This document shows, piece after piece, positions 6,071-27,901 of a DNA stretch of 39,119 bases. The stretch is from the NCBI GenBank assembly GCA_964600565.1, contig CAZRJS010000005.1, positions 1 through 39,119 of the forward strand, in the 5' to 3' direction. Made by a program: the position numbers and the translations under genes. The DNA is from Candidatus Woesearchaeota archaeon (lineage in GTDB: Archaea > Nanobdellota > Nanobdellia > Pacearchaeales > GW2011-AR1). The notes beneath the pieces are model-generated. The model had not been told where the DNA came from. It saw nothing but the letters and a program-made list of their open reading frames with translations, and searched no databases. The stretch's first letter is position 1. Each line of letters opens with the position of its first letter.

Positions 6071-6099
6071 TTTAAAATTCTCTTTTTATTTTTTAAATT

Positions 6100-7632: not shown

Positions 7633-7720
7633 TATTTTTTCACAATTCACCCCCTCTTTTAAAGATTATGTAAGTGTTAGGAATTTATAATTAATATCTT
7701 TCTATATAATTAATTGAAGT

Positions 7721-9787: not shown

Positions 9788-9847
9788 TTTAAATTAATGA
9801 AATGTAAATTGAGATATATATAAAATTAGTTGTAGTAAAAATCTATA

Positions 9848-10195: not shown

Positions 10196-10470
10196 ATTTG
10201 CAAACCTTTACTAATTGCTTTTTTTAAATTTGGATTTGTATTGTGAATCCAAGTTATTCCATTAAGTGAAGTAAAAATTTTATTACTCTGCTCTAAATAC
10301 TGAAGAATAAGCATAAGGGTATTGTGATTAACTTGTCTAGGAAGATTTCTTTTAAGTTCTGCAATAGAAATAACACTTTCATTTGCCTCTTTCAAAATTT
10401 TTTCTATCATAATTACAGTATTAAGTGTTGGCCAATGAATTACTTTTCTTCCTTGTACTAAACTTGACAT
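10192..10470 (-). CDS. small winged-helix-like protein, putative antitoxin (copy 1)
   Basis: 92-aa ORF translationally coupled to the toxin-like gene by a 4-nt ATGA overlap. Homologous by eye to 31745..32029 (HWPTLNTVIMIE vs HYPQLDTILRME; W.H/W.W near the C-terminus). Confidence 0.45.
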   Translation of the reverse strand: MSSLVQGRKVIHWPTLNTVIMIEKILKEANESVISIAELKRNLPRQVNHNTLMLILQYLEQSNKIFTSLNGITWIHNTNPNLKKAISKGLQI

Positions 10471-10604
10471 TTTAATAATTAATAGTTATTTACTTGTAAA
10501 TATTAACGATAAGTTTGTATTTAAGGTTTTTGGTTTAAATTTTATAATTAATTTTTTTATTAAATCTAAAAATATTAATTACAAAGGAGTAACAAAAAGA
10601 AAGA

Positions 10605-10612
10605 TTTATATA
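10605..10612 (+). promoter_or_regulatory. TATA-box-like TTTATATA upstream of 10635..11384
   Basis: TTTATATA at -30 to -23 relative to the ATG. The identical element sits at the same spacing in the second duplication unit. Confidence 0.4.
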
Positions 10613-10634
10613 GCCATTATGTGTTTAAAAAAAC

Positions 10635-11384
10635 ATGAAACCAACATTAATAGAACAAATAGGAGTAAAAAATAAACCCCTGCCTATGCTTTTAGGAGAA
10701 GAAAGTTTCTTAGAAAGAAAAGATAAGCCTTTATTACAAGTTTTAACATATAGGGAAATTTTCAACCCAGAAAAATCAAGAGAAACTGCCTTGAATATTT
10801 TAGAAAATGAGTCTTTGAAAGAAAGAGGAATTGTTTATAAAGGACATCCATGGAAATTTGATGAATTTAATAATCCTGAAAAATTAAAAAAAAATCTTGA
10901 TTATTCCCAAAAAGAATTTGATTTTCTTAGTGTTTCAGGGACTTACATTCCCTGGAAAGGACCTTGGGAGAAAGGCAGAATTGTAGATAATTTAGAAAAA
11001 AAATATTGGGCATATTATGGATATTTTGTTGGAGGAGCTTCTATATTATCCTTAGCATCAGGATCTCCTTTTTTAGGAGTTGGAAGTGCATCTTTATTAG
11101 TTTTTGCTTTGGTAGAAAAAAATAGAAGAAACAAAAAAGAGATAGTAAGAATTAAATTGAATAAATTAGAAAATGCAGCTGATTCTTATAATACTATCCA
11201 AGATAATTTAGAAAGAGCAGAAATTGAAGTTTATTCCCCAGATTCTGCAAAGAAAATTTTTGGAAAAGTTAAAGAGATTCGAAAAAGAAAAAATAATCCA
11301 TATGAATTAAAAAGTATTAATTTAAAAAAAGTGAATAAAGATTTGATAAATTCATACGATAATTTCTTAAGAGCAAATCCTTAA
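10635..11384 (+). CDS. hypothetical membrane protein, tandem paralog A
   Basis: 249 aa with a hydrophobic hairpin GGASILSLASGSPFLGVGSASLLVFALVEK and a coiled-coil-like C-terminal half. No family recognised. Confidence 0.6.
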   Translation: MKPTLIEQIGVKNKPLPMLLGEESFLERKDKPLLQVLTYREIFNPEKSRETALNILENESLKERGIVYKGHPWKFDEFNNPEKLKKNLDYSQKEFDFLSVSGTYIPWKGPWEKGRIVDNLEKKYWAYYGYFVGGASILSLASGSPFLGVGSASLLVFALVEKNRRNKKEIVRIKLNKLENAADSYNTIQDNLERAEIEVYSPDSAKKIFGKVKEIRKRKNNPYELKSINLKKVNKDLINSYDNFLRANP

Positions 11385-11434
11385 TTTAATAATAATTTAT
11401 AGAGAGTTGGAATTGATTTTTCAGGATTTTCTAT
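11381..11434 (-). pseudogene. orphan copy of the 3' end of gene 12245..13129
   Basis: The minus strand translates IENPEKSIPTLYKLLLN*, against the genuine C-terminus IENHEKSIPTLYRLLLN* at 12245-12298. It lies at the equivalent position of duplication unit 1 with no upstream ORF. Confidence 0.7.
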
Positions 11435-11471
11435 CTATTTTATTAATTTCAAAGGAGTAACAAAAGAAAGA

Positions 11472-11479
11472 TTTATATA
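11472..11479 (+). promoter_or_regulatory. TATA-box-like TTTATATA upstream of 11502..12248
   Basis: Duplicate of the element at 10605-10612, with the same -30 to -23 spacing to the ATG. Confidence 0.4.
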
Positions 11480-11501
11480 GCTATTATATGTTTAGAAAAA
11501 C

Positions 11502-12248
11502 ATGAAACCAACATTAATAGTACAAATAGGAGAGAAAAATAACCCTATACCCATGCTTTTAGGTGAAGAGAGTTTATTAGAAAAGAAAAACAATCCTTTG
11601 TTACAAGTTTTAACATATACAGAAGGATTAAAACCAGAAGAAGCAAGAGAAACTGCTTTGAATATTTTAGAAAATGAGCCTTTGAAAGAAAGAGGAATTT
11701 TCTATAAAGAACTTAAATGGGAGCAAGAATTCTTGAATAATTCTCGTAAATTGCAAGAAAGTGCTAAGGTTATTCCAAGAGAATTAGATTCTTATAGTTC
11801 TATTTCAAAAATTTATCTTCCTTGGAAGAAAGGGGAGATTCGGTTTGATTTAGCTAAAAAAGCAGGGGCATTATACGGAGAAGTTATAGGGATGTATGGT
11901 TTGACTTTAGCATCAATAGGTTTTCCTTTTTTAGGACTTGGAGTTGGAAGTGCATCTTTATTAGTTTTTGCTTTGGTAGAAAAAGATAGAAGAAACAAAA
12001 AAGAGATAGCAAGAACTAATTTGAATAAATTAGAAAATGTAGTTGATTCTTACAAAAACCTTGAAGATAATTTAAAGAGAGCAGAAATTAAAATTTATTC
12101 TCCAAAACCAGCTAAAGAAATTTTTGAAAAAGTTAAAGAGATTCGAAAAAGAAAAAATAATCCATATGAATTAAAAAGTATTAATTTAAAAAAAGTGAAT
12201 AAAGATTTGATAGATTTATACGATAATTTCTTAAGAGCAAATCCTTAA
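11502..12248 (+). CDS. hypothetical membrane protein, tandem paralog B
   Basis: 248 aa. The N-terminal ~65 and C-terminal ~45 residues are nearly identical to paralog A, while the central ~60 residues are strongly diverged. Its stop overlaps the convergent gene's stop (TTAA). Confidence 0.6.
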   Translation: MKPTLIVQIGEKNNPIPMLLGEESLLEKKNNPLLQVLTYTEGLKPEEARETALNILENEPLKERGIFYKELKWEQEFLNNSRKLQESAKVIPRELDSYSSISKIYLPWKKGEIRFDLAKKAGALYGEVIGMYGLTLASIGFPFLGLGVGSASLLVFALVEKDRRNKKEIARTNLNKLENVVDSYKNLEDNLKRAEIKIYSPKPAKEIFEKVKEIRKRKNNPYELKSINLKKVNKDLIDLYDNFLRANP

Positions 12249-13129
12249 TTTAATAATAATCTATAGAGAGTTGGAATAGATTTTTCATGATTTTCTATAA
12301 TAGTTAATCCCTTTCCTTTAAAATAAGTTGGTCTTTCGACCACATTTTTTCTAGGTCGATAATGATCTATTTTATCTAAATTTGCTGCAGTAAATTTTTC
12401 CACATTAAAACCTAAATTTCTAGTTATTGAAAATGATTTAAGAAAAACCTCAGGCATTATTACAGCAGAACCTAAATTAACCACAACTCCTTGTTTTAAT
12501 TTTGAAATAGAATCTGTTAAAATCTTAAAATCATTATATGAAGAACTCCCTAATGCTCCTGCATCACATTCAGGATGTTCATAAATTATCTCAGCCCCAA
12601 TTGCAGTGTGAACTGTGAGAGGAATATTTAACTTATATGAATGATAAAATAAACTAAATTCTTTATACTTCAAATTCATATCAGATATTAATTTGCCAAT
12701 AGAATATCCTAATCCAAGATTCTTTTTAGAAGCTTTTTTTGCAGCTAAGTTCAAATAATGCCCTGTTTCTTCAGCCATTCCAAAACTTCCATCTTTAAGA
12801 TTTTCTAAAACATCTTCTGAAGTTGCACCAATATAAGCTATCTCAAAATCATGAATTGGAACTGCTCCATTTACTGCAATATGAGTAATAATATCTCTCT
12901 TCATTAAATCAATAATAAATAAAGATAAACCTAATTTAATTGCATGTGCACCCATCATAAAAATAAATTGCTTGTTATTTTTTCTTGCTTGAGTTATTTT
13001 TTCTGAAAGTTCAATCAAGTTTTTGTTATTAGATAAAATTATAGGGTCTGATAAAGAAATTATATTCTCTAAATTAAATTTATTTTTTCTCTTGCTTAAA
13101 GAGATAGTTTTTATTTTATTAAAATCCAT
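12245..13129 (-). CDS. conserved hypothetical protein with weak deoxyhypusine-synthase-like (DS-fold) resemblance
   Basis: The ORF starts 1 nt after the mre11 stop. Segments MMGAHAIKLGLSLFIIDLMKRDIITHIAVNGAVPIHDFEI and SLFYHSYKLNIPLTVHTAIG resemble by eye the Rossmann-like layout of deoxyhypusine synthases. I do not see the SWGK-type lysine region I recall from true DHS. Confidence 0.35.
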   Translation of the reverse strand: MDFNKIKTISLSKRKNKFNLENIISLSDPIILSNNKNLIELSEKITQARKNNKQFIFMMGAHAIKLGLSLFIIDLMKRDIITHIAVNGAVPIHDFEIAYIGATSEDVLENLKDGSFGMAEETGHYLNLAAKKASKKNLGLGYSIGKLISDMNLKYKEFSLFYHSYKLNIPLTVHTAIGAEIIYEHPECDAGALGSSSYNDFKILTDSISKLKQGVVVNLGSAVIMPEVFLKSFSITRNLGFNVEKFTAANLDKIDHYRPRKNVVERPTYFKGKGLTIIENHEKSIPTLYRLLLN

Positions 13130-13130
13130 T

Positions 13131-14318
13131 TTAAAACTTCAAAATTTTTTTTGCATCATCTAGTAAACGAGTATTAAAATTTTCAGTTGTTTCACCTTCT
13201 TGTTTTTCAATTGAAAAAGAACTCATTAATTGATATACCAGATTGTTAAATTCAGAAGGATTTTCTTTAGAATAAAATTTTATTGCTTCTTCTTCAATAT
13301 TTTCTGTTTTTTCTTCTTCTATCTTTACTTCTAATTCATCTTCTTTTGTTTTTAAATTATGAATATTTTTTAACAAAAAATAAGCTCCTTTTTGCTTTAC
13401 AAATTCTTCTATTTGCGAAAATCTAATATCTGAATTTTTACTATTTTCAAGCTCTCCTCTTAATCTTATCAAAACAACTTTATCTTTAATATCATACTTT
13501 CCAATTTCAGAAATTATGTAATCTGTGGCAACTAAAGCATTTTTTATTTCAAATTCAAAACTTTTAACAGATTTTACTTTTATCTCTACTCTTTCAAGTA
13601 ATTTTTCTTTATTAGTATCAACTATATAAAAACCTCCAAAATTAATATCTTCTAGTTCCTGAAAATTATTTGGAAAAACTGGTCCTGGATAAACAAAATT
13701 TTCATATCGAAAATCAATATGTAAATGCCCCATTGCATAATAATCTGCCTTTGGAAGCTTTTCTTCCTCAATTGCATCAATAGGTAAAGAGCCTTTTGCT
13801 TTATCAAGAGTTGTGTGCAACATAAGTATCCTAAACATTCCAGGAGAATCATTAATTTTTATTCTTCTTAAATCATTTATTTCTAACCCGGATTTTTTTC
13901 CAGGATACCCATAGATTGCAACCCCTTTATAGATCGTTGGGTGAAGAACTATTTGATTATTTCTTTCTTCAGAAGTTGCTTCTTCAGGGTCAAAAGAGGT
14001 TACATTTTTACAAAAACCTGCTTTTTCTAAAACATCAAGAAAAGTTTTTCCAGAAACAGAATAATCATGTGAACCTGCAATTATAAAACATTTTAATCCA
14101 ACTTCATTTAATCTTTTAAATTCTGCAAAAGTTTTTTTCAGTATCTCAATTGAAGGAAATGCAGAATCAAATAAATCTCCTGCTATTAAAACAAAATCAA
14201 GTTTGGATTTTAAACATATATCTACTGCCCTCTTAAAAGATTCTGAATTTAAATCCTGCATGGGTTGTTGCTTCCACCCTCCAAGATGAACATCAGCCAT
14301 ATGTGCAAAGCGAACCAT
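13131..14318 (-). CDS. mre11: DNA double-strand break repair nuclease Mre11
   Basis: Calcineurin-like phosphoesterase motifs FAHMADVHLG, IAGDLFD, GSHD and GHLH in the Mre11 order; 395 aa. Confidence 0.85.
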   Translation of the reverse strand: MVRFAHMADVHLGGWKQQPMQDLNSESFKRAVDICLKSKLDFVLIAGDLFDSAFPSIEILKKTFAEFKRLNEVGLKCFIIAGSHDYSVSGKTFLDVLEKAGFCKNVTSFDPEEATSEERNNQIVLHPTIYKGVAIYGYPGKKSGLEINDLRRIKINDSPGMFRILMLHTTLDKAKGSLPIDAIEEEKLPKADYYAMGHLHIDFRYENFVYPGPVFPNNFQELEDINFGGFYIVDTNKEKLLERVEIKVKSVKSFEFEIKNALVATDYIISEIGKYDIKDKVVLIRLRGELENSKNSDIRFSQIEEFVKQKGAYFLLKNIHNLKTKEDELEVKIEEEKTENIEEEAIKFYSKENPSEFNNLVYQLMSSFSIEKQEGETTENFNTRLLDDAKKILKF

Positions 14319-14411
14319 AAAATTTGCAAAGATTTTGAATATATAAAATTTATTGTTATAAATAAGGGGTTTGAATAATTCTTTTTATAAAATATCAAAA
14401 AATTTGGTAAA

Positions 14412-14954
14412 TTATTTTCCAGTTAATTCCCAAACATAAATTTCCTCAAAAAATAATTTCTTTTTAGCTAATAAAATTTTTTTATAATTTAACCATTTAA
14501 TTCCTTTTGTTAAAGAGCTTGTAATTAAAAATATCTTCCCTTTATCAGTTAAATGAAATTTTGCTTGTTTCAAAAATTTATTAACTATTTCGGAGCCTTT
14601 TTTCCCCCCGGTTGTGGCAAGTCTCGAATCTCTTGGCTCTCTTTTATCTTCTGGAAGATAAGGGGGATTAAAAATAATTAAATCAAACTTAGATTTTATA
14701 TTTTCAAATAAATTTGATTTCATACAATTAAAACCTAATTTTCTGCAGTAATCAACAGCATTTAAATTTATATCACATGCAAAAATATTTTGTTTTTTTA
14801 TTCCTGCATTAAAAGCTGTTTGTAAATTAATTCCCCCTCCACAACCCATCTCTAAAAATTTCAAATCAGAAACTCTTAATTTTTTAGTGAGTTGTTTTTT
14901 CAAAATTTCTGAAAAAAAATAAGAATCTTCAGAAAAAGGATAAACTTCACACAT
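14412..14954 (-). CDS. HemK/Mtq2-like protein N5-glutamine methyltransferase
   Basis: SAM-binding motif LEMGCGGGIN and catalytic FNPPYLP (NPPY), with the size of archaeal Mtq2-type enzymes. The track start at 15017 is a TTG and would overlap the upstream gene by 44 nt, so the ATG at 14954 (MCEVYPF) is preferred. Confidence 0.7.
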   Translation of the reverse strand: MCEVYPFSEDSYFFSEILKKQLTKKLRVSDLKFLEMGCGGGINLQTAFNAGIKKQNIFACDINLNAVDYCRKLGFNCMKSNLFENIKSKFDLIIFNPPYLPEDKREPRDSRLATTGGKKGSEIVNKFLKQAKFHLTDKGKIFLITSSLTKGIKWLNYKKILLAKKKLFFEEIYVWELTGK

Positions 14955-14973
14955 TTTAAAAATTTTAGAAAGG

Positions 14974-15486
14974 TTAAGAAATAAAATCAATAATTTTATC
15001 TTTAAAAAAACAAACAACTATTGAAACACCTAATAAAAAAATCACTACATATAGAAGAATCATTAATAATCCATTTTTGCATTTTACAGGTTTTTCAGAA
15101 TAATCTGAAACTTTTGGTGTATTATTTACTGGTCTTTTCTCAATTTTTTGAGGTTGCTCTTCAAATTCTTGTTTTTTTTCAGTTTTACTATCTTCTAAAA
15201 ATTTCTCTTCTACTTTCTTTTTTTCAATTTTTTGGATTACTGGTAATTGATTTTTCTTCTGAATTTGATCAATTTTTGGAATTGTTGGTTTCTGCAGTTG
15301 CCCTTGTTTATCCTCAGAAAAATTTATTTTTTCCCCATTAAAATCCCCTTGATAAAGTTCTAATGCAGATGCTTCAATTTCTTCTTTTACATATCCTGCA
15401 TTATAAAAAGACATCATTGCATCTTTTAGAGTTTCTCCTTTTGACAATGCAGCTCTTAATCCGACAAGAATTTCTTTATTCACCAT
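14974..15486 (-). CDS. tail-anchored membrane protein with K/E/Q-rich linker
   Basis: 170 aa: a small N-terminal domain, a low-complexity KKVEEKFLEDSKTEKKQEFEEQPQKIEK region and a C-terminal TM helix LLMILLYVVIFLLGVSIVVCFF. No family recognised. Confidence 0.5.
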   Translation of the reverse strand: MVNKEILVGLRAALSKGETLKDAMMSFYNAGYVKEEIEASALELYQGDFNGEKINFSEDKQGQLQKPTIPKIDQIQKKNQLPVIQKIEKKKVEEKFLEDSKTEKKQEFEEQPQKIEKRPVNNTPKVSDYSEKPVKCKNGLLMILLYVVIFLLGVSIVVCFFKDKIIDFIS

Positions 15487-15515
15487 ATAACTTTAATTAA
15501 TTAAAGTTTAAAAAC

Positions 15516-16859
15516 TTATAGTTTAATCTCATGATTATCTTGCATAAGATGAACTTCTTTTCCAACCCTATAACCCATTTCTTTTGCAAGCTCTAACATT
15601 GGAATTAATTGTTGTGTAGAACCATGAGAAGGAATTATATTTTCTGGATTCACAATTAAAATTAAATCTCTTAAATCTTCTCTTCCCCCATGACCAGAAA
15701 CATGAACATTATCAAAAATCCTAACACCAGATTTTTTAAGCTTTTTATCCATATTCTCCTTATTTGCGATATTTATCGGAGCAGGAATTGTTTTTGAAGA
15801 AAAAATTATATTATCATTTGATTTAAATTCAAAAGGAAGTTTTCCTCTCGCAAGCCTGTCCATTATACTTCCTGGTTCCCCTTGATGTCCTGTACAAATA
15901 ACTAAAGAACTTTCTTTATTATTGCTAACTTTTTTAAGGATTGAATCTACCTGTCTTTTATAGGTTCCAATCTGGATATCTTTTTTAAAAGGACATAAAC
16001 CAACTTCTTGAGCAGAAGAAAGATATTTTCCCATACTCCTTCCAATAACATAAACTTTCCTGTTAAGTTTTTTTGCAAAATCAACAATACTTTTTATCCT
16101 TGCTATATGTGAAGAAAAAGTTGAAACAAAAATTGCTGATTTTTCATTTTTTATTGTTAACATAACCTCTTCAAGAAGAGCTCTTGCAACTTTTTCACTA
16201 GGAGTTTTTCTATTTTCTCCTGAATATAAAGAATCTGCAATTAAAACTTTTACACCTTTTTTAGAAAGTTCTTTTAATTTTTCATAATTAGGTGGAAGCC
16301 CTAAAATAGGGGAATTATCAAGCTTAAAATCATTTGCATAAAGAATAATTCCTTCAGGAGCATGAATAGCAATCATTGCTGTTTGAAGAGTTGAATGGGT
16401 TATATTAATAAATTCTACTTTATAATCTCTTTTTTTCCCCTTTACCATAAAAGAAGAGTTTGGATTTACTACTTGAATTTTATTTCCAAAAACTAGCTTA
16501 TCATCTTTCATTATTCTTTTTAAAACAGAAATTGTGAAAGGAGTTCCTACAACTGGAGCATTATATCTATAAGCTATATAAGGAACTGCGCCAACATGAT
16601 CTAAATGAGCATGCCCAATTAAAATTGCACGGATTTTTTTTCTTAATCCAAGCCTATCAAGAATAAGATCATCGGGAATAGCACCAATTCTTCTTAATTT
16701 TTTTTCAGAAAGAGGTTGTTGTACTGTCTCTTCTTCTTGTAATTCGACTACTGCAGGAAGAAAAAGGCCTGCATCAAGCATAATAGCATCATCTCCCAAA
16801 TCTATCACAGTCATATTTTTTCCTACTTCATTATATCCCCCAACTGTATAAATCTTCAT
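15516..16859 (-). CDS. rnj: archaeal RNase J (beta-CASP metallo-beta-lactamase ribonuclease)
   Basis: N-terminus KIYTVGGYNEVGKNMTVIDLGDDAIMLDAGL and GHAHLDHVGAVPY; about 447 aa. Two in-frame ATGs exist (16877 and 16859). A TTTTTAAA box just upstream of the first sits about 25 nt from the second, which fits a leaderless start at 16859. Confidence 0.8.
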   Translation of the reverse strand: MKIYTVGGYNEVGKNMTVIDLGDDAIMLDAGLFLPAVVELQEEETVQQPLSEKKLRRIGAIPDDLILDRLGLRKKIRAILIGHAHLDHVGAVPYIAYRYNAPVVGTPFTISVLKRIMKDDKLVFGNKIQVVNPNSSFMVKGKKRDYKVEFINITHSTLQTAMIAIHAPEGIILYANDFKLDNSPILGLPPNYEKLKELSKKGVKVLIADSLYSGENRKTPSEKVARALLEEVMLTIKNEKSAIFVSTFSSHIARIKSIVDFAKKLNRKVYVIGRSMGKYLSSAQEVGLCPFKKDIQIGTYKRQVDSILKKVSNNKESSLVICTGHQGEPGSIMDRLARGKLPFEFKSNDNIIFSSKTIPAPINIANKENMDKKLKKSGVRIFDNVHVSGHGGREDLRDLILIVNPENIIPSHGSTQQLIPMLELAKEMGYRVGKEVHLMQDNHEIKL

Positions 16860-16946
16860 ATTAAATAAAAAAAACATAGTTTAAAAATGTTTTAGAATTA
16901 TATTCAAATTCTAATATGAATATGCTTTAGTGAAACAATTAATAAT

Positions 16947-17117: not shown

Positions 17118-19499
17118 CTAAATTCTAAATCTTAAAATAGCCCCCATTCCTGAAAGATTATAAAATTGCTCTCCTTCTGTTGTCTCTCTTGAAACTATTT
17201 CTATCTTGGCAGAGATTTCTTCTGCAAGTTTTTTTAATTCCTTAAATAAAATTTTTTTATATCCTTTTGTAAAAATTAGGGTTTCTATAGCACCATATTG
17301 CAAAGCTTTTCTTATTTCAGATTCTTTATAAACTACAAGTTCAGAAGTTTCTCCAAGAATTCTGAAAAATTTCTCAAGTAATTTTTTTTCATAAATTATT
17401 TCTTGATTAGCAAGTAATTCTTGTGATCTCTGAACTAATTCATTTAATCCTGTTTCAGATGAATCTCCAATATCTACTCTTCCAATTACTTTTTCTTTAA
17501 GTTTTGTTTTTAAATAATCTCCATCAAGAAATTCATCTTTTGTAGGAACAGGCCCACCAACAATTATACCTCCTAATTTAGGCATTTCAAAAAAACTTTT
17601 TTTCATCTCTTCTGCAATTCTTTTATAAAATTCCTTTGTTAGGTTTTCTGTTATTCTATGAAATCTCTGAGAGGAATTATGAACAATTAACCCATTAGCT
17701 ATAAAATTATGATTTTTAGTTTCAATATCAACAGTACAATTAAACCCAATATTTTCAATTTTATTTATTTTTACTGCTATTAAATTTGAATTATAAAACA
17801 TCTCAAGTCTTCTCTTTAAATCAATATCCAAAATTTTATCCAAAATTTTATTCTTAAAAACTTCTTTGCTCATTTGCCTTTTATTACAAAAGAAATAACC
17901 GCAATGAAAACCTCTCGTATTTAATCCAGAATTTCTAATTATTTTTGCAACTTCAGACCCATTTACTGCTAATTGCCTAACCTTATTCCTGTTACTTCTA
18001 CTTTTAATTAGTTTCTTAACTTTATCTTGTTTTTCTGACGAGGAAAATTTGATTGTATTACAAAATTTTTTTAAAGATTCTAAGTCATCAATTGCTAAGG
18101 TATACCTTAAATTATTGGAATAAGGATTTCTTTTATTATCATATTCACTAACTGAAGAAATAACCCCTAACCTCAATAATGCAAATTGAAATTGTTTTGC
18201 TAAAGTTTTATTGTTAATTCCAAATGCAATTTTGCCTTTAGAAACATATCCTTCTGCATCAAAAAATCCTGAAACAAATCCAGAAAGAGATTTATCAGAA
18301 GATTTTAAAATAATTTGTGGAATTTTTCCTTCCAAAGTTTTATTTTTGTCTGGAAAGATTTGTTTAAATAATTGACTAATTATTCTACTATACACTCTCA
18401 ATTGCCAATAATTTTTAGATTTTCTAAACCTTAAATCAGAATGAATTTCAAAAATTTCCTTAATTAAATTTTTATAATAATTTGCAAACTCCTCTCGTTG
18501 TTCAAAAAAGGTTATTCTATCCTCTTCATAACTTCCATCTCCAAGATAATAACCTAAAATTTTTGCTAATTTTTGATTAATTTTTTTTGGAATTTCAACT
18601 TTTTTAATATTAAAAAATTGTTTAATTTTTGGATAAAAATCTATTTTTTGATCTTTTAAATCAAGATTAATTTTCTCTGGAAAAATTAAATAATCTCCTT
18701 CTTTAATCTCACAAAGAGGTTTCTCAACTATTCCTTTATCACATCTAACAAAAAAAGTGTGCTCTTTTGAAGCATTAATCTCAAATCTAGGGTAAGCAGT
18801 GATTATCTTAAATAATTCTTTTTTATCTTCCCATTTTACAACAAGCGGAGTTTCTTCTATTTTCTCTTTATTAAAATTTTCAGAAATTATTATTAAAGGA
18901 TTATGGGAATCTTTAATCTCAATAATCTCACCATTATTTTTCATGATTAATGTTTCAGGACTTAAGCATTGCCCTCCAGCCCTTATTTTACTTGGAATTC
19001 CAGAAGTCATTTTATGAAGCATCTCTATTCTTTTTCCTTCAAGCATCCCAATAGTGGCTTCTTTTCTATCCATGACTAACAATCCAAAAACTTCAGAAAC
19101 TTCTAACATAAATTCTAATGCTTCAAGAACAAATTCTTTATCACATCTATAAAGACGAGCTTTAAGAGGTATTGGGGGTTCAATCAACCATAATTGCAAA
19201 TCACTCTGACCTTCTACTTTTGAAACATTACCAGAAAAAACCGCTAGTCCATTTTTAGGAGTTTTTTTAAGACCTTTAAGTTCACGAACAATTTTTTCAA
19301 GAGCCTCAATAACATTTTTTCTATTTGAAGCAGATTTTATATTTTTAGCTGTTGCTTTTTCTGCCTCTAATTGTCTCTGAACTGTATTAATATCATAATT
19401 CTCAGGAACATAAACTGTAATCAATTCCGTATGTCTTCCTTTGTAATTTTTCAACTCTTCAACAACTTCTTCAAGCTCTTGTTTTGTTAATATAGTCAT
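17118..19499 (-). CDS. prf1: peptide chain release factor aRF1, interrupted by an intein
   Basis: NIKS motif (AKNIKSAS), then GGQ (RAGGQ) followed immediately by a 431-aa insert. The C-extein resumes SSQRFHRI. At 793 aa it is roughly twice the normal aRF1 length. Confidence 0.9.
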   Translation of the reverse strand: MTILTKQELEEVVEELKNYKGRHTELITVYVPENYDINTVQRQLEAEKATAKNIKSASNRKNVIEALEKIVRELKGLKKTPKNGLAVFSGNVSKVEGQSDLQLWLIEPPIPLKARLYRCDKEFVLEALEFMLEVSEVFGLLVMDRKEATIGMLEGKRIEMLHKMTSGIPSKIRAGGQCLSPETLIMKNNGEIIEIKDSHNPLIIISENFNKEKIEETPLVVKWEDKKELFKIITAYPRFEINASKEHTFFVRCDKGIVEKPLCEIKEGDYLIFPEKINLDLKDQKIDFYPKIKQFFNIKKVEIPKKINQKLAKILGYYLGDGSYEEDRITFFEQREEFANYYKNLIKEIFEIHSDLRFRKSKNYWQLRVYSRIISQLFKQIFPDKNKTLEGKIPQIILKSSDKSLSGFVSGFFDAEGYVSKGKIAFGINNKTLAKQFQFALLRLGVISSVSEYDNKRNPYSNNLRYTLAIDDLESLKKFCNTIKFSSSEKQDKVKKLIKSRSNRNKVRQLAVNGSEVAKIIRNSGLNTRGFHCGYFFCNKRQMSKEVFKNKILDKILDIDLKRRLEMFYNSNLIAVKINKIENIGFNCTVDIETKNHNFIANGLIVHNSSQRFHRITENLTKEFYKRIAEEMKKSFFEMPKLGGIIVGGPVPTKDEFLDGDYLKTKLKEKVIGRVDIGDSSETGLNELVQRSQELLANQEIIYEKKLLEKFFRILGETSELVVYKESEIRKALQYGAIETLIFTKGYKKILFKELKKLAEEISAKIEIVSRETTEGEQFYNLSGMGAILRFRI
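17676..18968 (-). mobile_element. intein with LAGLIDADG homing endonuclease domain (aRF1 residues 178-608)
   Basis: Starts with Cys (CLSPETLIM, block A) and has an SKEH block-B-like motif. LAGLIDADG motifs LGYYLGDGSY and GFFDAEGYV. Ends NHNFIANGLIVHN, followed by the +1 Ser. Boundary codons were checked at 18966-18968 (TGC) and 17676-17678 (AAT). Confidence 0.85.
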
Positions 19500-21682: not shown

Positions 21683-24136
21683 TTAATTAAACTCTACATT
21701 AAACTTCCCCTCTTTAATCTCTTTGGCATTTGTAACATTTTTTAAATCAGGTAAAACACTTTTTAATTTATCTTTATCTTTTTTACTAATTGACAAAATA
21801 ATTTCTGAATTCATTGGTTTTTTTGCTTTTGTTTTTTCCTGCCTAACTAGAGAGATAATCTCTGTAAGAGCATCCCAAATAATTTTTTCATTATTAACTT
21901 CTTTTAAATTAAATAACTTAAATTCTGGCCATTTAGAGAGGTGAATAGATTTATCTTTTTCATATTTCTTAAAATAAGTTTGATAAATCTCTTCTGTAAT
22001 AAAAGGAACTATTGGAGAAAAAACATTTATTATTGCTAGAAGAGAAGTATATAAAGTATATTGGGCAGATTTTTTTTCATCTTTATCCCCATTATAGATT
22101 CTTTTTTTAATAATTTCAAGATAATTATCACAAAAATCTTTCCAAAAAAATTGTTCTACTTCTTGTTTCACTTTTGAATATTCATAATTTGAAAAATGTT
22201 TTGTAATACTTTTTATTATAACAAAAAGCTTATTAAGAAAAATTCTATCCAAAATTTCAAGATTTTTTGGTTTTTTAAAATCATAATCTTCTAAATTCAT
22301 AAAAACAAATTTTGAAGCATTTGTTAATTTTATTATGAATTTTTTTCCTGAAATAACATCTTGTTCCTGATAATCAAAATCTTTTCCAAGTTTTGAAGAA
22401 GCTGCCCAAAATCTCATAGCATCAGCACCATATTTTTCAATAACCTCTTGAGGCCTTATTATATTTCCTTTTGATTTAGACATTTTCTCTCCTTTAAGTG
22501 TAACAAAACCAGAAATAGCGACATCTTTCCAGGGATTTTTATTAAAATGTAGTCTTGATTTAACAAGTGTATTAAAAAGCCAAAAAGAAATTATTTCATG
22601 TGCCTGAGGCCTTAAACTCATGGGAAATATTTTTTTTGAATATTTTTCTTCAACTAATCCGGCAACAATCTGTGGAGTCATTGATGAAGTAAACCAGGTA
22701 TTAAGCACATCTTTTTCAGGAATAAAACTTTTTGATTTGCACTTTGGACATTGTTTAACATAAGGTTTATCTTTAAAAGGGTCTACAGGCAAATCCTCTT
22801 CTCTTGCTAAAATAATCTCTCCACATTTTCTGCAATACCAAACAGGAAATGGAATTCCAAAATGTCTTTGATTAGAAACCAACCAATCCCATTGTAATCC
22901 TTTAACCCAATTATCATAACGAGTTTTCATGAATTTCGGATACCAGTTTAATTCAGCCCCCCAACTTAACATATCTTTTTTAATATCAAGATATTTCAAA
23001 AACCACTGCTTTGTTTTAATAAATTCTATTTCAGTTCCACATCTCTCGTGAACATTAACAGGATGAACAATTTCTTCTTGCTTAACTAATAAATTTTGCT
23101 CTTTTAAATCACTAATAATTGCTTTTCTTGCTTCTTTAACTCTCATTCCTTTATATTTTCCAGAAATAGAAGTCATTTTTCCCTCCTTACTTATAGCTTC
23201 TTTTATTGGAAGATTATAAGCTTTCTGCCATTCCATATCTGTTTGGTCTCCAAAAGTAGCACAATAAGCAATACCTGTTCCTTTTTTAGGGTCTGCTCTT
23301 TTATCTTCTAAAATTGGAACTTCAAAATTAAACAAAGGAATTTCAGCTTTCTTCCCTTTTAAGTGCTTATATCTCTTGTCATTTGGATTATAAAAAACAG
23401 CAACACTTGCAGGAAAAAGTTCTGGTCTTGTGGTAGAAATAATTAAATCTTCTTTTCCAACTTTAAGTATAACATCAATAAAATTTGAATGTAAATTTTT
23501 ATCTTCAACCTCAACCTGAGCAACACCTGTCCTGCATTCTGGACAATACATTGCAGGAGCATCTCTTCTTTCCATTCTTTTTTTCTTATATAAATCTAAA
23601 AAACTCCATTGTGAAATTATCCTGGAATTTTTTTCAATTGTTGAATAAATCATATTCCAATCACAACTTATTCCTATATTTTTCCAATCTAAAATAAATT
23701 TAGGCATTTCCTTCTCAACAAAATTTGTGCAAAGAAGTATGAAATCATTTCTTGACATTTCTTTTGACTTAACATTATTCTTTCTTTCAACAAGTCTCTC
23801 TGTTGGAAGTCCATTATTATCTACCCCAAAAGGATAAAAAACATTATAACCAATCTTTCTTCTAAACCTTGCTATAAAATCTTGTTGTGAATAAGAACAT
23901 GCATGCCCAATATGCATCTCTCCAGAAAAAGTTGGGGGCGGGGTGTCTATAGAAAAAACAGGTTTATCTGAATCTAGATTAAAATTATAAATTTTCTCTT
24001 TTTCCCAAAATTCCTTGTATTTTTTTTCTATTCCAACGAAATCTGGTTTATTTCTGCGCGAAGGCACAGTCTTAGATTTCGTGGAGCCAGAAATCAAAGA
24101 TTTCTGAGCGTCTTTAAAATCAATTTGGTTTTTCAT
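21683..24136 (-). CDS. valS: valine--tRNA ligase
   Basis: Class I signatures TPPPTFSGEMHIGHA (HIGH) and KMSKSKGN (KMSKS). FGVDNNGLPTE and the overall length fit the archaeal-type ValRS. The track start at 24145 is a TTG; the first ATG is at 24136. Confidence 0.85.
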   Translation of the reverse strand: MKNQIDFKDAQKSLISGSTKSKTVPSRRNKPDFVGIEKKYKEFWEKEKIYNFNLDSDKPVFSIDTPPPTFSGEMHIGHACSYSQQDFIARFRRKIGYNVFYPFGVDNNGLPTERLVERKNNVKSKEMSRNDFILLCTNFVEKEMPKFILDWKNIGISCDWNMIYSTIEKNSRIISQWSFLDLYKKKRMERRDAPAMYCPECRTGVAQVEVEDKNLHSNFIDVILKVGKEDLIISTTRPELFPASVAVFYNPNDKRYKHLKGKKAEIPLFNFEVPILEDKRADPKKGTGIAYCATFGDQTDMEWQKAYNLPIKEAISKEGKMTSISGKYKGMRVKEARKAIISDLKEQNLLVKQEEIVHPVNVHERCGTEIEFIKTKQWFLKYLDIKKDMLSWGAELNWYPKFMKTRYDNWVKGLQWDWLVSNQRHFGIPFPVWYCRKCGEIILAREEDLPVDPFKDKPYVKQCPKCKSKSFIPEKDVLNTWFTSSMTPQIVAGLVEEKYSKKIFPMSLRPQAHEIISFWLFNTLVKSRLHFNKNPWKDVAISGFVTLKGEKMSKSKGNIIRPQEVIEKYGADAMRFWAASSKLGKDFDYQEQDVISGKKFIIKLTNASKFVFMNLEDYDFKKPKNLEILDRIFLNKLFVIIKSITKHFSNYEYSKVKQEVEQFFWKDFCDNYLEIIKKRIYNGDKDEKKSAQYTLYTSLLAIINVFSPIVPFITEEIYQTYFKKYEKDKSIHLSKWPEFKLFNLKEVNNEKIIWDALTEIISLVRQEKTKAKKPMNSEIILSISKKDKDKLKSVLPDLKNVTNAKEIKEGKFNVEFN

Positions 24137-24245
24137 AATAACCAATCAAGATACAGGAAAGTTATAAAGTTTTCTTAAGATAAAATCTTAGATTTTCCCT
24201 TTAAAAAAATCATTAAGAATTAAATTGATAAATAAATTTTATCTT

Positions 24246-24749
24246 TTAATAAAATTTCCCCTTTACTAAAGACTTTGCTCTTTTCCAATAAAACCAAGCT
24301 CCTAAAAAAACAACTAATCCTATTCCAATAAAAACTAAACCTGCAATAGAAGTTGTAATTAAAAAATATATCCCAAATCCGAAAAGCGCTATTGCAATAA
24401 CTGCTGTAATAATTGCTTTTATTCTCAAATTCCATCCACTAAACTTATATGTTGTAGATAGAATTTTGCTTCCTGTGCTTTGTTCATCTTGCTTAGGCAC
24501 TATATTTTGTTCCATTTTTTTAAATTTTTCCTCTTGTTTTTTTTGATAATTAAATAAAAACCAAGTCATCCCAAAAATTAAGGCTCCTAGTAAGGTTATT
24601 ATGATTTTAATACCCCAAGTTGATTTAATAACTTTTCCTTCAACATTAGTAATTTCACCTAAATCAAACCACAAAGCAATAACCATGAAAATATAAACTA
24701 AAGAAATAAAAATCAATTTAATAAATATTTTTTTATTTGAGGCAACCAT
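24246..24749 (-). CDS. membrane protein, unknown function
   Basis: 167 aa with four hydrophobic helices. No family recognised. Confidence 0.55.
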   Translation of the reverse strand: MVASNKKIFIKLIFISLVYIFMVIALWFDLGEITNVEGKVIKSTWGIKIIITLLGALIFGMTWFLFNYQKKQEEKFKKMEQNIVPKQDEQSTGSKILSTTYKFSGWNLRIKAIITAVIAIALFGFGIYFLITTSIAGLVFIGIGLVVFLGAWFYWKRAKSLVKGKFY

Positions 24750-24861
24750 ATTTTAAAAAAAACCTTTTTAATTTATAAATACTTTCAATCAATTAATCCT
24801 TAAATAATTCTATGAGTTTTCTATACACAATCTTTTTATACTAATCTCCTCTTGAAATATT

Positions 24862-25023
24862 ATGGCTCAAGAAAATGTTAATCTTCCAGCAGGATTTGGA
24901 GGACTTACAAGGTTTAAAGAAGAATATGAGAGTAAATTTAATCTAAAACCTTCTCAGGTAATTATGTTTGTAATATTAATAATTGTATTTAGAATTAGTT
25001 TAGAATTTTTGATTAAACAATAA
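24862..25023 (+). CDS. preprotein translocase subunit Sec61-beta (below the ORF-track size cut-off)
   Basis: My translation is MAQENVNLPAGFGGLTRFKEEYESKFNLKPSQVIMFVILIIVFRISLEFLIKQ*. It has the GL.R motif, the K..P..V segment and a C-terminal TM helix typical of archaeal Sec61-beta. A TATA-like CTTTTTATAC lies upstream. Confidence 0.7.
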   Translation: MAQENVNLPAGFGGLTRFKEEYESKFNLKPSQVIMFVILIIVFRISLEFLIKQ

Positions 25024-25027
25024 AAAA

Positions 25028-25363
25028 ATGTTTCCAGAATTAAACCCAAAAAAAATGCAAGCTGTAATGAAACAGATGGGAATCTCCCAACAAGAAATAG
25101 ATTCTTCTAAAGTTACAATTGAAAAAAATGACGGGAATAAAATAATTATTGACAATCCTTCTGTAACTAAGATTCATATGCAAGGACAGGAAACATTTCA
25201 AATTGCAGGAGGCTCTATTAGGGAAGAGAGTTCTAAACCTGAAATAAGTAAAGAAGATATACAAACAATTATTGAAAAAACTAATTGTTCTGAAGAAAAA
25301 GCCAGAGAAACCCTTGAAAAAACAGGGGATTTAGCTGATGCGATTATGGAATTAAGTGAATAA
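25028..25363 (+). CDS. nac: nascent polypeptide-associated complex protein (NAC)
   Basis: NAC domain NPKKMQAVMKQMGI...IIIDNPSVTKIHMQGQETFQIAG and a C-terminal UBA-like EEKARETLEKTGDLADAIMEL. Confidence 0.85.
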   Translation: MFPELNPKKMQAVMKQMGISQQEIDSSKVTIEKNDGNKIIIDNPSVTKIHMQGQETFQIAGGSIREESSKPEISKEDIQTIIEKTNCSEEKARETLEKTGDLADAIMELSE

Positions 25364-25391
25364 TTTTTTAAAAATTTTTACAAAAATAGGG

Positions 25392-25661
25392 TTATTTCTC
25401 GAATAAAATGAAACTTATATCTGTTAAAGATTTAATCTTATGGAAAGTTTCTGCTGGAAATTCTACTTTTGCAGGAGATTTAACAATCCAAGTTTTATCT
25501 CTTAAGGTTATTTCAGCTGAACCAGTAATAAAATAAATTATTTCACGAACATTTTCAGAATTATCACCTGCAATTACCCCTTTATACCTATAAAGAATTT
25601 TAAAATTATCAGCTTGATAAGTTTTACCCTCATCATTTTCTTTAATAAGTTCTATATCCAT
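25392..25661 (-). CDS. small cupin-like protein
   Basis: 89-aa ORF with a beta-strand-rich pattern (IYFITGSAEITL...FPAETFHKI) suggesting a single cupin barrel. Weak call. Confidence 0.4.
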   Translation of the reverse strand: MDIELIKENDEGKTYQADNFKILYRYKGVIAGDNSENVREIIYFITGSAEITLRDKTWIVKSPAKVEFPAETFHKIKSLTDISFILFEK

Positions 25662-25818
25662 TTTATAAATAAAATAATCATTAGTTAAATAATCTTTGAA
25701 AATAAAAATATTTGATTAATATCACACTAAAACTTATTACAAAAAATTAAACTAAAAATATACAACCAAATTACATAAAAACTTATAAGGAATATTATCT
25801 TTTTACAAAAAGACTAAA

Positions 25819-26226
25819 ATGGGAGATAAATCAAAATACACTTTTGAGATTAAACTTAGATATTTAAATTCAGACTTACTAAGAAAAAATAATCATTTCC
25901 AATCAAAATTAGAAGAGACAATTCAATTGGGAAGAGACAGTGGAATTAATATTGAAATTGGAATATATCCGGAAATAACATCAGAACTAAAAAATAAAGT
26001 AGAAGTTTATTTTTCTAATAAGACTTATAAGGGATTTAAATTAAATTTTAATCTAAAAAAATTAGAAAGATCTAACTTAGACCCAGCTACAATTTATGCT
26101 GTGACAGAAAAGATTGATTTTAAAGAATGTGTGGGAGATGATGAAAACTGGGAAACTGCCTTAGCAGATATTGGAAAAGAATTTGGTGTATACTTAAAAC
26201 CTAAATATTTGTTTAAAGAAATTTAA
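25819..26226 (+). CDS. hypothetical protein, tandem paralog 1 (135 aa)
   Basis: Shares YPEITSELKNKVEVYF, IYAVTEKI and NWETALADIGKEFGVYLK blocks with the next gene. No family recognised. Confidence 0.55.
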   Translation: MGDKSKYTFEIKLRYLNSDLLRKNNHFQSKLEETIQLGRDSGINIEIGIYPEITSELKNKVEVYFSNKTYKGFKLNFNLKKLERSNLDPATIYAVTEKIDFKECVGDDENWETALADIGKEFGVYLKPKYLFKEI

Positions 26227-26304
26227 GAACAATTATCTAATAAATTATTAAAAATTATACTAAATAATATAAATCCTTATAAAATCTATTTTTTTTATTG
26301 TAAA

Positions 26305-26712: not shown

Positions 26713-26721
26713 AAAATATAT

Positions 26722-27354: not shown

Positions 27355-27355
27355 T

Positions 27356-27886: not shown

Positions 27887-27901
27887 TTTTTAGATTTATT
27901 T

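What the first reader, a model, noticed from the sequence alone, without database searches (positions are those of the whole stretch)
17676..18968. Full-size LAGLIDADG intein inserted in aRF1 immediately after the catalytic GGQ glutamine
The 793-aa product of 17118..19499 is about twice the usual aRF1 length. Residues 1-177 carry NIKS and end ...SKIRAGGQ.

Residue 178 is Cys (CLSPETLIM). The insert contains an SKEH block-B-like motif and two LAGLIDADG motifs (LGYYLGDGSY, GFFDAEGYV). It ends NHNFIANGLIVHN and is followed by Ser.

Excision would join RAGGQ|SSQRFHRI, restoring the canonical GGQS..RF peptidyl-tRNA hydrolysis loop. The selfish element therefore sits at the most conserved catalytic residue of the only archaeal class I release factor. 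The unspliced precursor should be inactive, making termination dependent on splicing.

I do not recall aRF1 among the classical intein host proteins (polymerases, MCM, RFC, RNR, VMA, helicases and others), so this insertion site may be uncatalogued. That recollection needs checking.
Basis: partly seen in the sequence, partly recalled or inferred. Interest (0 to 1): 0.7.

Follow-up and report, generated by a model that had tools for sequence, protein, structure and literature searches.

The report
Mobile intein splitting archaeal release factor
A self-splicing, self-spreading protein insert (an intein carrying a homing endonuclease) sits exactly at the catalytic GGQ loop of the stop-codon release factor of a small DPANN archaeon. 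It is a real and widespread example of a well-known kind of element, at an insertion site I could not find described in any paper.

Summary
ORF 19499..17118 encodes a 793-aa aRF1. A 431-aa insert (17676..18968) follows Gln177 of GGQ. It starts with Cys, has a block-B S..H, two LAGLIDADG motifs, ends in His-Asn and is followed by Ser.

Pfam, NCBIfam, PDB sequence search and an AlphaFold model with Foldseek all identify a class-1 intein with a LAGLIDADG endonuclease inside a bona fide aRF1. Natural intein-free alleles (about 362 aa, 71-77% identical) read ...RAGGQSSQRFHRI, exactly the in-silico splice product.

The allele is common. More than 120 clusters at 90% identity carry the same 431-aa intein in Pacearchaeota. 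Related inteins occupy the same site in Woesearchaeota, Aenigmarchaeota, Micrarchaeota, Diapherotrites and Nanohaloarchaea.

Splicing and endonuclease residues are almost invariant. Intein and host phylogenies are discordant, and mini-inteins and empty sites coexist. This is the picture of an active homing cycle.

No paper in the searchable library describes an aRF1 intein. JGI automatic annotation already labels such genes, and NCBI mislabels them.

Verdict: a new member (insertion site) of a known kind, of moderate interest. In passing, many Aenigmarchaeota relatives have Met or Trp instead of the GGQ Gln at -1, with a Gln at +2.

The parts
17118..19499 (-). aRF1 precursor gene (793 aa plus stop) that contains the intein
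   Evidence: ORF listing. Pfam eRF1_1/2/3, Intein_splicing and LAGLIDADG_3. NCBIfam TIGR03676 374 bits against a cut-off of 234.7. An identical protein is found on 7 public contigs from 4 sources.
18969..19499 (-). N-extein, residues 1-177: aRF1 domain 1 (NIKS 19332-19343, YRCDKEF 19131-19151) and the start of domain 2, ending in GGQ (18969-18977)
   Evidence: It aligns end to end with intein-free aRF1.
17676..18968 (-). Intein, 431 aa (Cys178 to Asn608)
   Evidence: The boundaries are fixed by comparison with intein-free alleles.
18630..18968 (-). N-terminal splicing (Hint) region: block A CLSPETLI (18945-18968) and block B S-K-E-H (18759-18770)
   Evidence: Across 120 homologs, Cys1 is present in 119 and the block-B Ser and His in all 120. 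The AF2 model shows beta strands here.
17865..18602 (-). LAGLIDADG homing-endonuclease domain: motif 1 LGYYLGDGSY (18528-18557), motif 2 GFFDAEGYV (18243-18269), plus a conserved helical C-terminal extension
   Evidence: Pfam LAGLIDADG_3, two stretches. The acidic residues D321 and E416 are each conserved in 119 of 120 homologs. PDB sequence hit PI-PfuI 1DQ3 at 2e-10. Foldseek hits 7QSS, 1DQ3, 2CW7, 1VDE and I-DmoI 2VS7.
17676..17792 (-). C-terminal splicing region (blocks F and G), ...VDIETKNHNFIANGLIVHN, ending in His607-Asn608
   Evidence: TIGR01443 above its cut-off. His-Asn is present in 120 of 120 homologs.
17118..17675 (-). C-extein, residues 609-793 plus stop: the +1 nucleophile Ser609 (17673-17675), the rest of aRF1 domain 2, and domain 3
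   Evidence: Pfam eRF1_2 resumes at profile position 41 at residue 608/609; eRF1_3 covers 701-793. Ser+1 is present in 120 of 120 homologs.

Best explanation
The segment 17676..18968 (minus strand) is a class-1 intein carrying a two-motif LAGLIDADG homing endonuclease. It is inserted in frame in the aRF1 gene of a Pacearchaeota-type DPANN archaeon, between Gln177 of GGQ and Ser.

Inferred mechanism, by homology with characterised inteins:
1. The 793-aa precursor is translated.
2. Cys178 makes an N-S acyl shift at the Gln177-Cys178 bond.
3. The acyl group is transferred to Ser609.
4. Asn608, assisted by His607, cyclises and releases the intein.
5. An O-N shift leaves a normal Gln-Ser peptide bond. 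The product is a 362-aa aRF1 with an intact GGQSSQRF loop and a free 431-aa endonuclease.

The endonuclease is inferred to cut intein-free aRF1 alleles at the DNA encoding GGQ|S. Repair then copies the intein in (homing).

The comparative data show a population in an active homing cycle: occupied sites, empty sites, endonuclease-less mini-inteins, and intein lineages that do not track their hosts.
For: Shown by computation:
- All catalytic hallmarks are at the right places, with Pfam and NCBIfam hits above curated cut-offs.
- Sequence similarity to solved inteins: PI-PfuI and the Tli/Pho VMA inteins.
- An AF2 precursor model (pLDDT 80.8) has an insert that superposes on the TliVMA intein 7QSS (E 3.5e-21, TM 0.73) and on PI-PfuI, PI-TkoII and PI-SceI. 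Its remainder superposes on aRF1 4AF1 (TM 0.70) and on eRF1.
- Intein-free aRF1 of close relatives has exactly the predicted spliced junction, at protein and DNA level.
- Across 120 intein-bearing clusters: Cys1 in 119, block-B Ser and His in 120, His-Asn in 120, Ser+1 in 120, both LAGLIDADG acidic residues in 119 each, and intein length 431 aa in 108.
- The intein (mean pairwise identity 70%; endonuclease part 68%) is at least as conserved as the extein (66%).

Evidence for mobility:
- 39 of 120 intein-bearing exteins have an intein-free allele as their nearest neighbour. The closest such pair differs by 4.4%.
- P0013 and P0016 have exteins 98-99% identical but inteins only 73% identical.
- P0008 and P0111 have exteins 52-53% identical but inteins 77% identical.
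- Intein divergence plateaus near 0.30 whatever the host divergence.
- 133- and 141-aa mini-inteins occupy the same site.
- Synonymous differences cluster within about 12 nt of the insertion point in the two closest occupied/empty pairs.
Against: - No experiment: splicing and DNA cleavage are both inferred from sequence.
- The window (39 kb) cannot show that this is the only aRF1 of the genome.
- The correlation tests between intein and extein distances have low power, because intein distances are compressed.
- The flank-mismatch cluster rests on two pairs, and the region is rich in four- and six-fold degenerate codons.
- A Cys1-to-Arg variant seen in three assemblies (P0097) shows that alleles that should not splice can appear in assemblies. 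This is either error or a real defective allele.
- High conservation of the endonuclease could also reflect a host-beneficial role rather than ongoing homing.
Confidence: 0.9

Rival explanations
1. This is a domesticated or regulatory intein. It is retained because splicing is conditional (on redox, temperature or host-contact cues) and gates the supply of active release factor. The conserved endonuclease domain serves a host function rather than homing.
For: - The intein, including its endonuclease, is as conserved as or more conserved than the essential host protein.
- It sits at the catalytic loop, so splicing is obligatory for activity.
- In Aenigmarchaeota relatives no intein-free allele appeared among the best 120 hits, suggesting near-fixation there.
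- There is precedent for regulatory intein splicing in archaeal RadA (PMC11409957, listed).
Against: - In the window's own clade, empty sites are abundant and interspersed with occupied ones. The intein is therefore dispensable.
- The intein/extein discordance is what selfish homing predicts.
- No sequence feature specific to conditional splicing was identified.
Confidence: 0.06
2. This is a non-splicing insertion or decaying pseudogene. The interrupted aRF1 is non-functional, and termination is carried out by another copy elsewhere in the genome.
For: - Only 39 kb of the genome is visible.
- A Cys1-to-Arg variant exists in a related cluster.
Against: - The ORF is intact over 793 codons.
- NIKS, YxCxxxF and GGQ are kept.
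- All splicing residues are invariant in 119-120 of 120 clusters.
- The extein is as similar to intein-free orthologs (71-77% identity) as those are to each other.
- aRF1 is normally single-copy in such small genomes (general knowledge).
Confidence: 0.03
3. This is an assembly chimera or sequencing artefact that joins an endonuclease gene to aRF1.
For: None beyond the metagenomic origin of all related sequences.
Against: - The identical protein occurs on 7 contigs from ENA, JGI, Logan and NCBI assemblies.
- More than 120 divergent clusters share the same in-frame architecture and junctions.
Confidence: 0.01

Closest known systems
PI-PfuI (Pyrococcus furiosus RNR intein endonuclease, PDB 1DQ3), the Thermococcus/Pyrococcus VMA inteins (7QSS, 7QSU, 7QST) and PI-TkoII (2CW7)
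   Same: These are archaeal class-1 inteins with a Hint splicing domain interrupted by a two-motif LAGLIDADG endonuclease. They are the best sequence hits and fold hits, and their size (360-540 aa) is similar.
   Different: - The host protein differs: RNR, V-ATPase A or DNA polymerase against aRF1.
- Only 13-21% of residues are identical in the structural alignment.
- The +1 residue here is Ser.
- The aRF1 intein has its own conserved helical extension after the endonuclease core (about residues 490-570).
PI-SceI / VMA1 intein of yeasts (1VDE, 1LWS), the textbook homing-cycle intein
   Same: - Bifunctional splicing plus homing endonuclease.
- Presence/absence polymorphism among related hosts.
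- Horizontal transfer inferred from intein/host discordance, as seen here.
   Different: - It is eukaryotic and has a distinct DNA-recognition region.
- Homing has been demonstrated experimentally for PI-SceI and not here.
Inteins in other archaeal translation factors (aIF2 listed by Novikova et al. 2016, PMC4760082)
   Same: An intein in a core translation protein, at a conserved functional motif.
   Different: - That survey lists aIF2 (15 cases) but no release factor in its main text. It states that core translation and transcription components contain few inteins.
- The aRF1 site is in the peptidyl-tRNA hydrolysis loop, not a P-loop.
Intein-free aRF1 of Pacearchaeota/Nanoarchaeota (for example P0122, P0157, P0178; loci L001-L011)
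   Same: The extein is 71-77% identical and of the same length (about 362 aa). The junction sequence RAGGQSSQRFHRIT is identical.
   Different: They lack the 1293-bp insert. Half of the sampled empty alleles use AGT for the Ser after GGQ, whereas all 36 distinct occupied junctions use TCN.

Membership tests
Class-1 intein (Hint-domain protein-splicing element) | Nucleophile (Cys or Ser) as the first intein residue | tested here: met
   Cys178 directly follows GGQ. It is conserved in 119 of 120 homologs.
Class-1 intein (Hint-domain protein-splicing element) | Block B (T/S)xxH motif | tested here: met
   S244-K-E-H247. Ser and His are invariant in 120 of 120 homologs.
Class-1 intein (Hint-domain protein-splicing element) | C-terminal His-Asn followed by a +1 Ser, Thr or Cys | tested here: met
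   H607-N608 | S609, all 120 of 120. TIGR01443 scores 22.8 bits against a cut-off of 15.6.
Class-1 intein (Hint-domain protein-splicing element) | Hint fold or profile match | tested here: met
   Pfam PF14890 scores 57 bits against a cut-off of 35.8. The AF2 model matches 7QSS, 1DQ3 and 1VDE by Foldseek at E 1e-21 to 1e-9.
Class-1 intein (Hint-domain protein-splicing element) | In-frame insertion whose precise removal restores an uninterrupted conserved host sequence | tested here: met
   Natural empty alleles read RAGGQSSQRFHRI. The eRF1_2 profile is split at position 41.
Class-1 intein (Hint-domain protein-splicing element) | Demonstrated protein splicing | not testable with these tools
   This needs expression of the precursor and detection of the ligated exteins.
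Intein-associated LAGLIDADG homing endonuclease | Two LAGLIDADG motifs, each with the catalytic acidic residue | tested here: met
   LGYYLGD321G and GFFDAE416G. Each acidic residue is conserved in 119 of 120 homologs.
Intein-associated LAGLIDADG homing endonuclease | Profile and fold match to the LAGLIDADG domain | tested here: met
   PF14528 scores 71.3 bits against a cut-off of 22.5, in two stretches. Foldseek matches I-DmoI 2VS7 at TM 0.72, and PI-PfuI.
Intein-associated LAGLIDADG homing endonuclease | Site-specific cleavage of the intein-less allele and homing | not testable with these tools
   Only indirect support is available: patchy distribution, intein/host discordance and flank co-variation.
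aRF1 (archaeal class I release factor, TIGR03676) | Equivalog model score above the curated cut-off; three eRF1 domains | tested here: met
   374 bits against 234.7. eRF1_1, eRF1_2 and eRF1_3 are all present. The fold matches 4AF1 and 3AGK.
aRF1 (archaeal class I release factor, TIGR03676) | NIKS, YxCxxxF and GGQ motifs | tested here: met
   NIKS 53-56, YRCDKEF 117-123, GGQ 175-177.
Previously catalogued intein insertion sites (InBase or published surveys) | aRF1/eRF1 listed as an intein host | tested here: inconclusive
   Ten full-text searches and three surveys read gave no mention. InBase and the supplementary tables of Novikova 2016 are not available here. JGI automatic annotation does recognise the combination.

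The most novel reading that the evidence does not exclude
The aRF1 intein family to which this element belongs may have lived in DPANN release factors long enough to reshape the 'universal' GGQ active site.

In most Aenigmarchaeota relatives the residue before the intein is Met, Trp or Phe instead of Gln. A Gln then appears two residues into the C-extein (79 of 82 cases). Splicing would therefore yield GG[M/W]SQ. This loop is of the GGxSQ type, known so far only from Vms1-like release-factor paralogs.

If these are the sole release factors of those organisms, GGQ is not universal, and the intein's -1 position has been freed by moving the catalytic Gln. For the window's own allele, the corresponding reading is that splicing is an obligatory and possibly regulated maturation step for translation termination.
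Probability: 0.25. Interest if true: 0.8.

Novelty: new member of a known kind. Interest (0 to 1): 0.55.

Why it matters
- It adds the class I release factor, and specifically its peptidyl-tRNA hydrolysis loop, to the list of intein targets. That list is otherwise dominated by replication and repair proteins.
- In many DPANN archaea, translation termination would then depend on a protein-splicing step.
- The allele family is large and polymorphic: occupied sites, empty sites, mini-inteins and HTH-bearing variants. It is a natural system for studying homing and gene flow among uncultured episymbiotic archaea.
- In practice, NCBI names these genes 'hypothetical protein', 'LAGLIDADG family homing endonuclease' or 'helix-turn-helix domain-containing protein'. 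aRF1 therefore looks missing from those genomes, and its 430-510 extra residues can disturb marker-gene completeness estimates and phylogenomic alignments.
- The endonuclease would have a roughly 20-30-bp target in a universally conserved archaeal gene, and the intein has a Gln at -1 and Ser at +1. Both may interest protein engineers.

Tried and rejected
- **Plus-strand reading.** The + strand translation of 17118..19499 is full of stops. The gene is on the minus strand.
- **Genome-collection scan with the full precursor.** The patterns were too specific to this sequence. They returned only 12 loci, all intein-free, so the scan could not give the fraction of species carrying the intein. The loci were reused as empty-site DNA.
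- **Correlation of pairwise distances between extein and intein.** The result is weak (r 0.3-0.45, against 0.69 between the extein halves). The intein halves themselves correlate at only 0.48, because the distances are compressed. I relied on explicit discordant pairs instead.
- **Base composition as a sign of foreign origin.** The intein is 24.4% GC, the extein 30.0% and the window 26.9%. This is not informative.
- **Synteny comparison of Met-, Trp- and Gln-type Aenigmarchaeota loci, to decide orthology versus paralogy.** The neighbourhoods differ. Only the Met-type shares the aaRS-aRF1 adjacency with Pacearchaeota, so the result is inconclusive.
- **Supplementary tables of Novikova et al. 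2016.** They are not held.
- **Other intein-bearing genes in the window.** MCM (677 aa), DNA ligase and the class I aaRS showed no intein domains.
- **tRNA and Rfam scans.** They found only tRNA-Asn at 35-108.
Full report
**Observation**

The ORF 17118..19499 is real but lies on the minus strand; the plus-strand translation is riddled with stops. It encodes 793 aa. Residues 1-177 carry NIKS (53-56) and YRCDKEF (117-123) and end in ...SKIRAGGQ. Residue 178 is Cys.

The insert contains S244-K-E-H247, LGYYLGDGSY (315-324) and GFFDAEGYV (411-419). It ends ...NHNFIANGLIVHN at residue 608 and is followed by Ser609. The finding's coordinates 17676..18968 are exactly the 431 codons of the insert. In-silico excision gives a 363-aa protein reading RAGGQ|SSQRFHRI.

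**Identity of the parts**

- Pfam finds eRF1_1, eRF1_2 (split in two, resuming at profile position 41 at residue 608/609) and eRF1_3. Inside the gap it finds Intein_splicing (57 bits, cut-off 35.8) and LAGLIDADG_3 (71 bits, cut-off 22.5, two stretches).
- NCBIfam gives the aRF1 equivalog TIGR03676 at 374 bits (cut-off 234.7) and the intein C-terminal model TIGR01443 above its cut-off.
- The insert alone hits solved inteins by sequence: PI-PfuI 1DQ3 at 2e-10, and the Thermococcus/Pyrococcus VMA inteins 7QSS, 7QSU and 7QST.
- An AlphaFold2 model of the whole precursor, built on 40 homologs, has mean pLDDT 80.8. Confidence is low only at the junction loops (169-176, 200-215, 609-616).
- Foldseek places the insert on the TliVMA intein (E 3.5e-21, TM 0.73), PI-PfuI, PI-TkoII, PI-SceI and I-DmoI. 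It places the rest on archaeal aRF1 4AF1 (TM 0.70) and on many eRF1 structures.

The element therefore meets every testable defining feature of a class-1 intein with an intein-type LAGLIDADG endonuclease, and the host is a bona fide aRF1.

**Does excision restore the host?**

A search with the in-silico spliced extein returned, as its best 120 hits, almost only proteins of 360-364 aa. They are 71-77% identical and named aRF-1 of Candidatus Pacearchaeota or Nanoarchaeota. They read ...RAGGQSSQRFHRITEGL. The predicted splice product is thus a sequence that exists in nature in close relatives, at both protein and DNA level.

**Distribution**

- A search with the full precursor returned 626 hits. 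The best 120 clusters (at 90% identity) are all 789-801 aa, have the same domain set, and are 62-100% identical.
- The identical protein sits on 7 contigs from ENA, JGI, Logan and NCBI, with the same neighbours as the window. That excludes an assembly artefact.
- I searched the intein alone against 1.84 billion representatives at 50% identity. About 64 of the 150 best are aRF1 proteins split at the very same extein position.
- Other hosts (RNR, RadA) appear only from about E 1e-34.
- The names that sources give these proteins cover Pacearchaeota, Woesearchaeota, Nanoarchaeota, Diapherotrites, Aenigmarchaeota, Micrarchaeota and Nanohaloarchaea. All are DPANN lineages.
- Variants at the same site include mini-inteins of about 133-160 aa without an endonuclease (P0166, P0233, P0464 and others). 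They also include inteins of about 500-570 aa with an extra Cro/C1-type HTH domain between the N-terminal splicing region and the endonuclease.

**Is it functional and mobile?**

Conservation across the 120 Pacearchaeota-type alleles:
- Cys1 is present in 119.
- The block-B Ser and His, the terminal His-Asn and Ser+1 are each present in all 120.
- The two LAGLIDADG acidic residues are each present in 119.
- Intein length is 431 aa in 108.
- Mean pairwise identity is 70% for the intein (68% for the endonuclease part) against 66% for the extein. Both activities are under purifying selection.

Presence is patchy. 39 of 120 intein-bearing exteins have an intein-free allele as their nearest neighbour, and the closest occupied/empty pair differs by 4.4% in extein sequence.

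Intein and host histories are discordant:
- P0013 and P0016 have exteins 98-99% identical but inteins only 73% identical along their whole length.
- P0095 and P0098 show 97% against 79%.
- Conversely, P0008 and P0111 have exteins 52-53% identical but inteins 77% identical.
- Intein divergence plateaus near 0.30 whatever the host divergence.

These are the signatures of a homing cycle: invasion, spread, endonuclease loss giving mini-inteins, precise loss, and re-invasion.

At DNA level, the two closest occupied/empty pairs show synonymous differences concentrated within about 12 nt of the insertion point. The positions are -1, -4, -7, -10, +3, +4, +5, +10, +12 in one pair and -1, -4, -7, +4, +5, +6, +9 in the other, against about 10% mismatch elsewhere.

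All 36 distinct 431-type junctions use a TCN codon for Ser+1. Among empty alleles, 7 of 14 use AGT (Fisher p = 3e-5, not phylogenetically corrected).

Either pattern could come from co-conversion of flanks during homing or from resistant target variants. I regard both as suggestive only.

**Mechanism**

The steps are inferred from the homology, not shown. They are the canonical four-step class-1 splicing reaction, using Cys178, Ser609, Asn608 and His607. The reaction leaves Gln177-Ser as a normal peptide bond in the GGQ loop.

The free intein would act as a double-strand endonuclease on the uninterrupted GGQ|S-coding DNA. Because 431 residues interrupt the loop that must reach the peptidyl-transferase centre, the precursor is expected to be inactive. 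Whether this genome has another aRF1 could not be checked in 39 kb.

**Rivals**

- A domesticated or regulatory intein is not excluded, but it is disfavoured in this clade by the abundance of empty sites.
- A dead insertion is disfavoured by the conservation pattern.
- An artefact is excluded by independent assemblies.

**Novelty**

- Ten full-text searches found no paper that describes an intein in a release factor. The terms were intein with aRF1, eRF1, peptide chain release factor, release factor plus archaea, GGQ, DPANN, Woesearchaeota, and translation termination, plus Aenigmarchaeota with release factor.
- Novikova et al. 2016 list aIF2 but no release factor. They note that core translation proteins hold few inteins. 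The eukaryotic and Anaeramoeba surveys do not mention eRF1.
- InBase and supplementary tables could not be consulted.
- The sequences are abundant in public databases, and JGI's pipeline annotates them as 'eRF1/intein/homing endonuclease'. NCBI calls them hypothetical, LAGLIDADG endonuclease or HTH protein.
- I therefore class it as a new member (a new host and insertion site) of a well-known kind.

**Things seen on the way**

(a) Three genes downstream on the same strand lies a HemK2/MTQ2-family methyltransferase (14412..15017; TIGR00537 93.7 bits, cut-off 87). This is the enzyme family that N5-methylates the GGQ glutamine, which here is the intein's -1 residue.

(b) In relatives named Aenigmarchaeota, the residue before Cys1 is Met (60), Trp (22), Phe or Tyr (1 each), or Gln (30).
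- Non-Gln alleles start their C-extein with SQxRY in 79 of 82 cases. Gln alleles start with SA or SS in 25 of 29.
- These hosts keep NIKS and YxCxxxF.
- Splicing would give GG[M/W]SQ. [quoted passage not shown] A relocated catalytic Gln is therefore a plausible reading.
- I could not establish that these are the only release factors of those genomes.

(c) Two representatives (P0305, P0362) carry a second intein in domain 1, inserted directly before the Cys of YxCxxxF.

(d) A Cys1-to-Arg variant (CGT for TGT) appears in three assemblies of one cluster, and a Ser-Arg variant in another member.

**Verdict**

The element is an ordinary kind of thing in an unreported place. It belongs to a large DPANN-wide allele family that shows active homing.

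- Interest: 0.55.
- Confidence that it is a splicing-competent intein: about 0.9.
- Confidence that its endonuclease is currently active in homing: about 0.7.

Noticed in passing
window 14412-15017 (-): A HemK2/MTQ2-family protein methyltransferase (TIGR00537 93.7 bits, cut-off 87) lies on the same strand three genes downstream of the aRF1. This family methylates the Gln of GGQ, which here is the intein's -1 residue. The listed 201-aa TTG ORF overlaps the upstream 170-aa ORF. Public gene calls give 180 aa.
   Followed up: partly
related proteins P0249, P0265, P0273, P0274, P0277, P0278, P0285, P0293, P0402-P0454 and others; loci L103, L104: In aRF1 of Aenigmarchaeota the intein sits at the same site, but the residue before Cys1 is Met (60), Trp (22), Phe or Tyr instead of Gln. 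The C-extein then begins SQxRY in 79 of 82 cases. The spliced protein would read GG[M/W]SQ (a GGxSQ-type loop known from VLRF-1 families) rather than GGQ. NIKS and YxCxxxF are kept. It is not resolved whether these are the only release factors of those genomes.
   Followed up: partly
related proteins P0305 (1187 aa) and P0362 (1452 aa): These aRF1 proteins carry two inteins. One is at the GGQ site. The other is in domain 1, inserted directly before the Cys of the YxCxxxF stop-codon-recognition motif (...YLYM|C...HN|CDDHY).
   Followed up: partly
related proteins P0243, P0245, P0246, P0252, P0260; loci L060, L066, L070-L075, L082, L084: A variant of the aRF1 intein, about 500-570 aa long, has a Cro/C1-type HTH_3 domain between the N-terminal splicing region and the LAGLIDADG domain. 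It occurs in Woesearchaeota, Aenigmarchaeota and Micrarchaeota. NCBI names these aRF1 genes 'helix-turn-helix domain-containing protein'.
   Followed up: partly
loci L016-L055 compared with L001-L012, L096, L098: The codon for Ser+1 is TCN in all 36 distinct 431-type occupied junctions, but AGT in 7 of 14 empty alleles. In the two closest occupied/empty pairs, synonymous differences cluster within 12 nt of the insertion point. This is a possible co-conversion tract or a set of endonuclease-resistant target variants.
   Followed up: partly
loci L100-L102 (protein P0097) and cluster member P0398: One cluster of intein-bearing aRF1 has Arg (CGT) instead of Cys1 in three assemblies, and Ser-Arg in another member. 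Four other members have Cys. The allele should be unable to splice, so it is either a real defective variant or a shared read error.
   Followed up: partly
related proteins P0009, P0010, P0049, P0061, P0115, P0287, P0313, P0391: NCBI annotation of intein-bearing aRF1 is 'hypothetical protein', 'LAGLIDADG family homing endonuclease' or 'helix-turn-helix domain-containing protein'. One record (P0115) is filed under the bacterial name Candidatus Paceibacterota. aRF1 therefore appears missing from those genomes.
   Followed up: no
window 4187-16877 and 21683-37733: The surroundings are an ordinary archaeal information-processing neighbourhood at 27% GC: FttA/aCPSF1 (4187-6070), Rad50-like (7721-9787), Mre11-like (13131-14318), RNase J (15516-16877), a class I aaRS (21683-24145), MCM (27902-29935, no intein), a Schlafen/AlbA_2 protein (33889-35019), DNA ligase (36009-37733) and tRNA-Asn (35-108). 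No other intein is in the window.
   Followed up: yes
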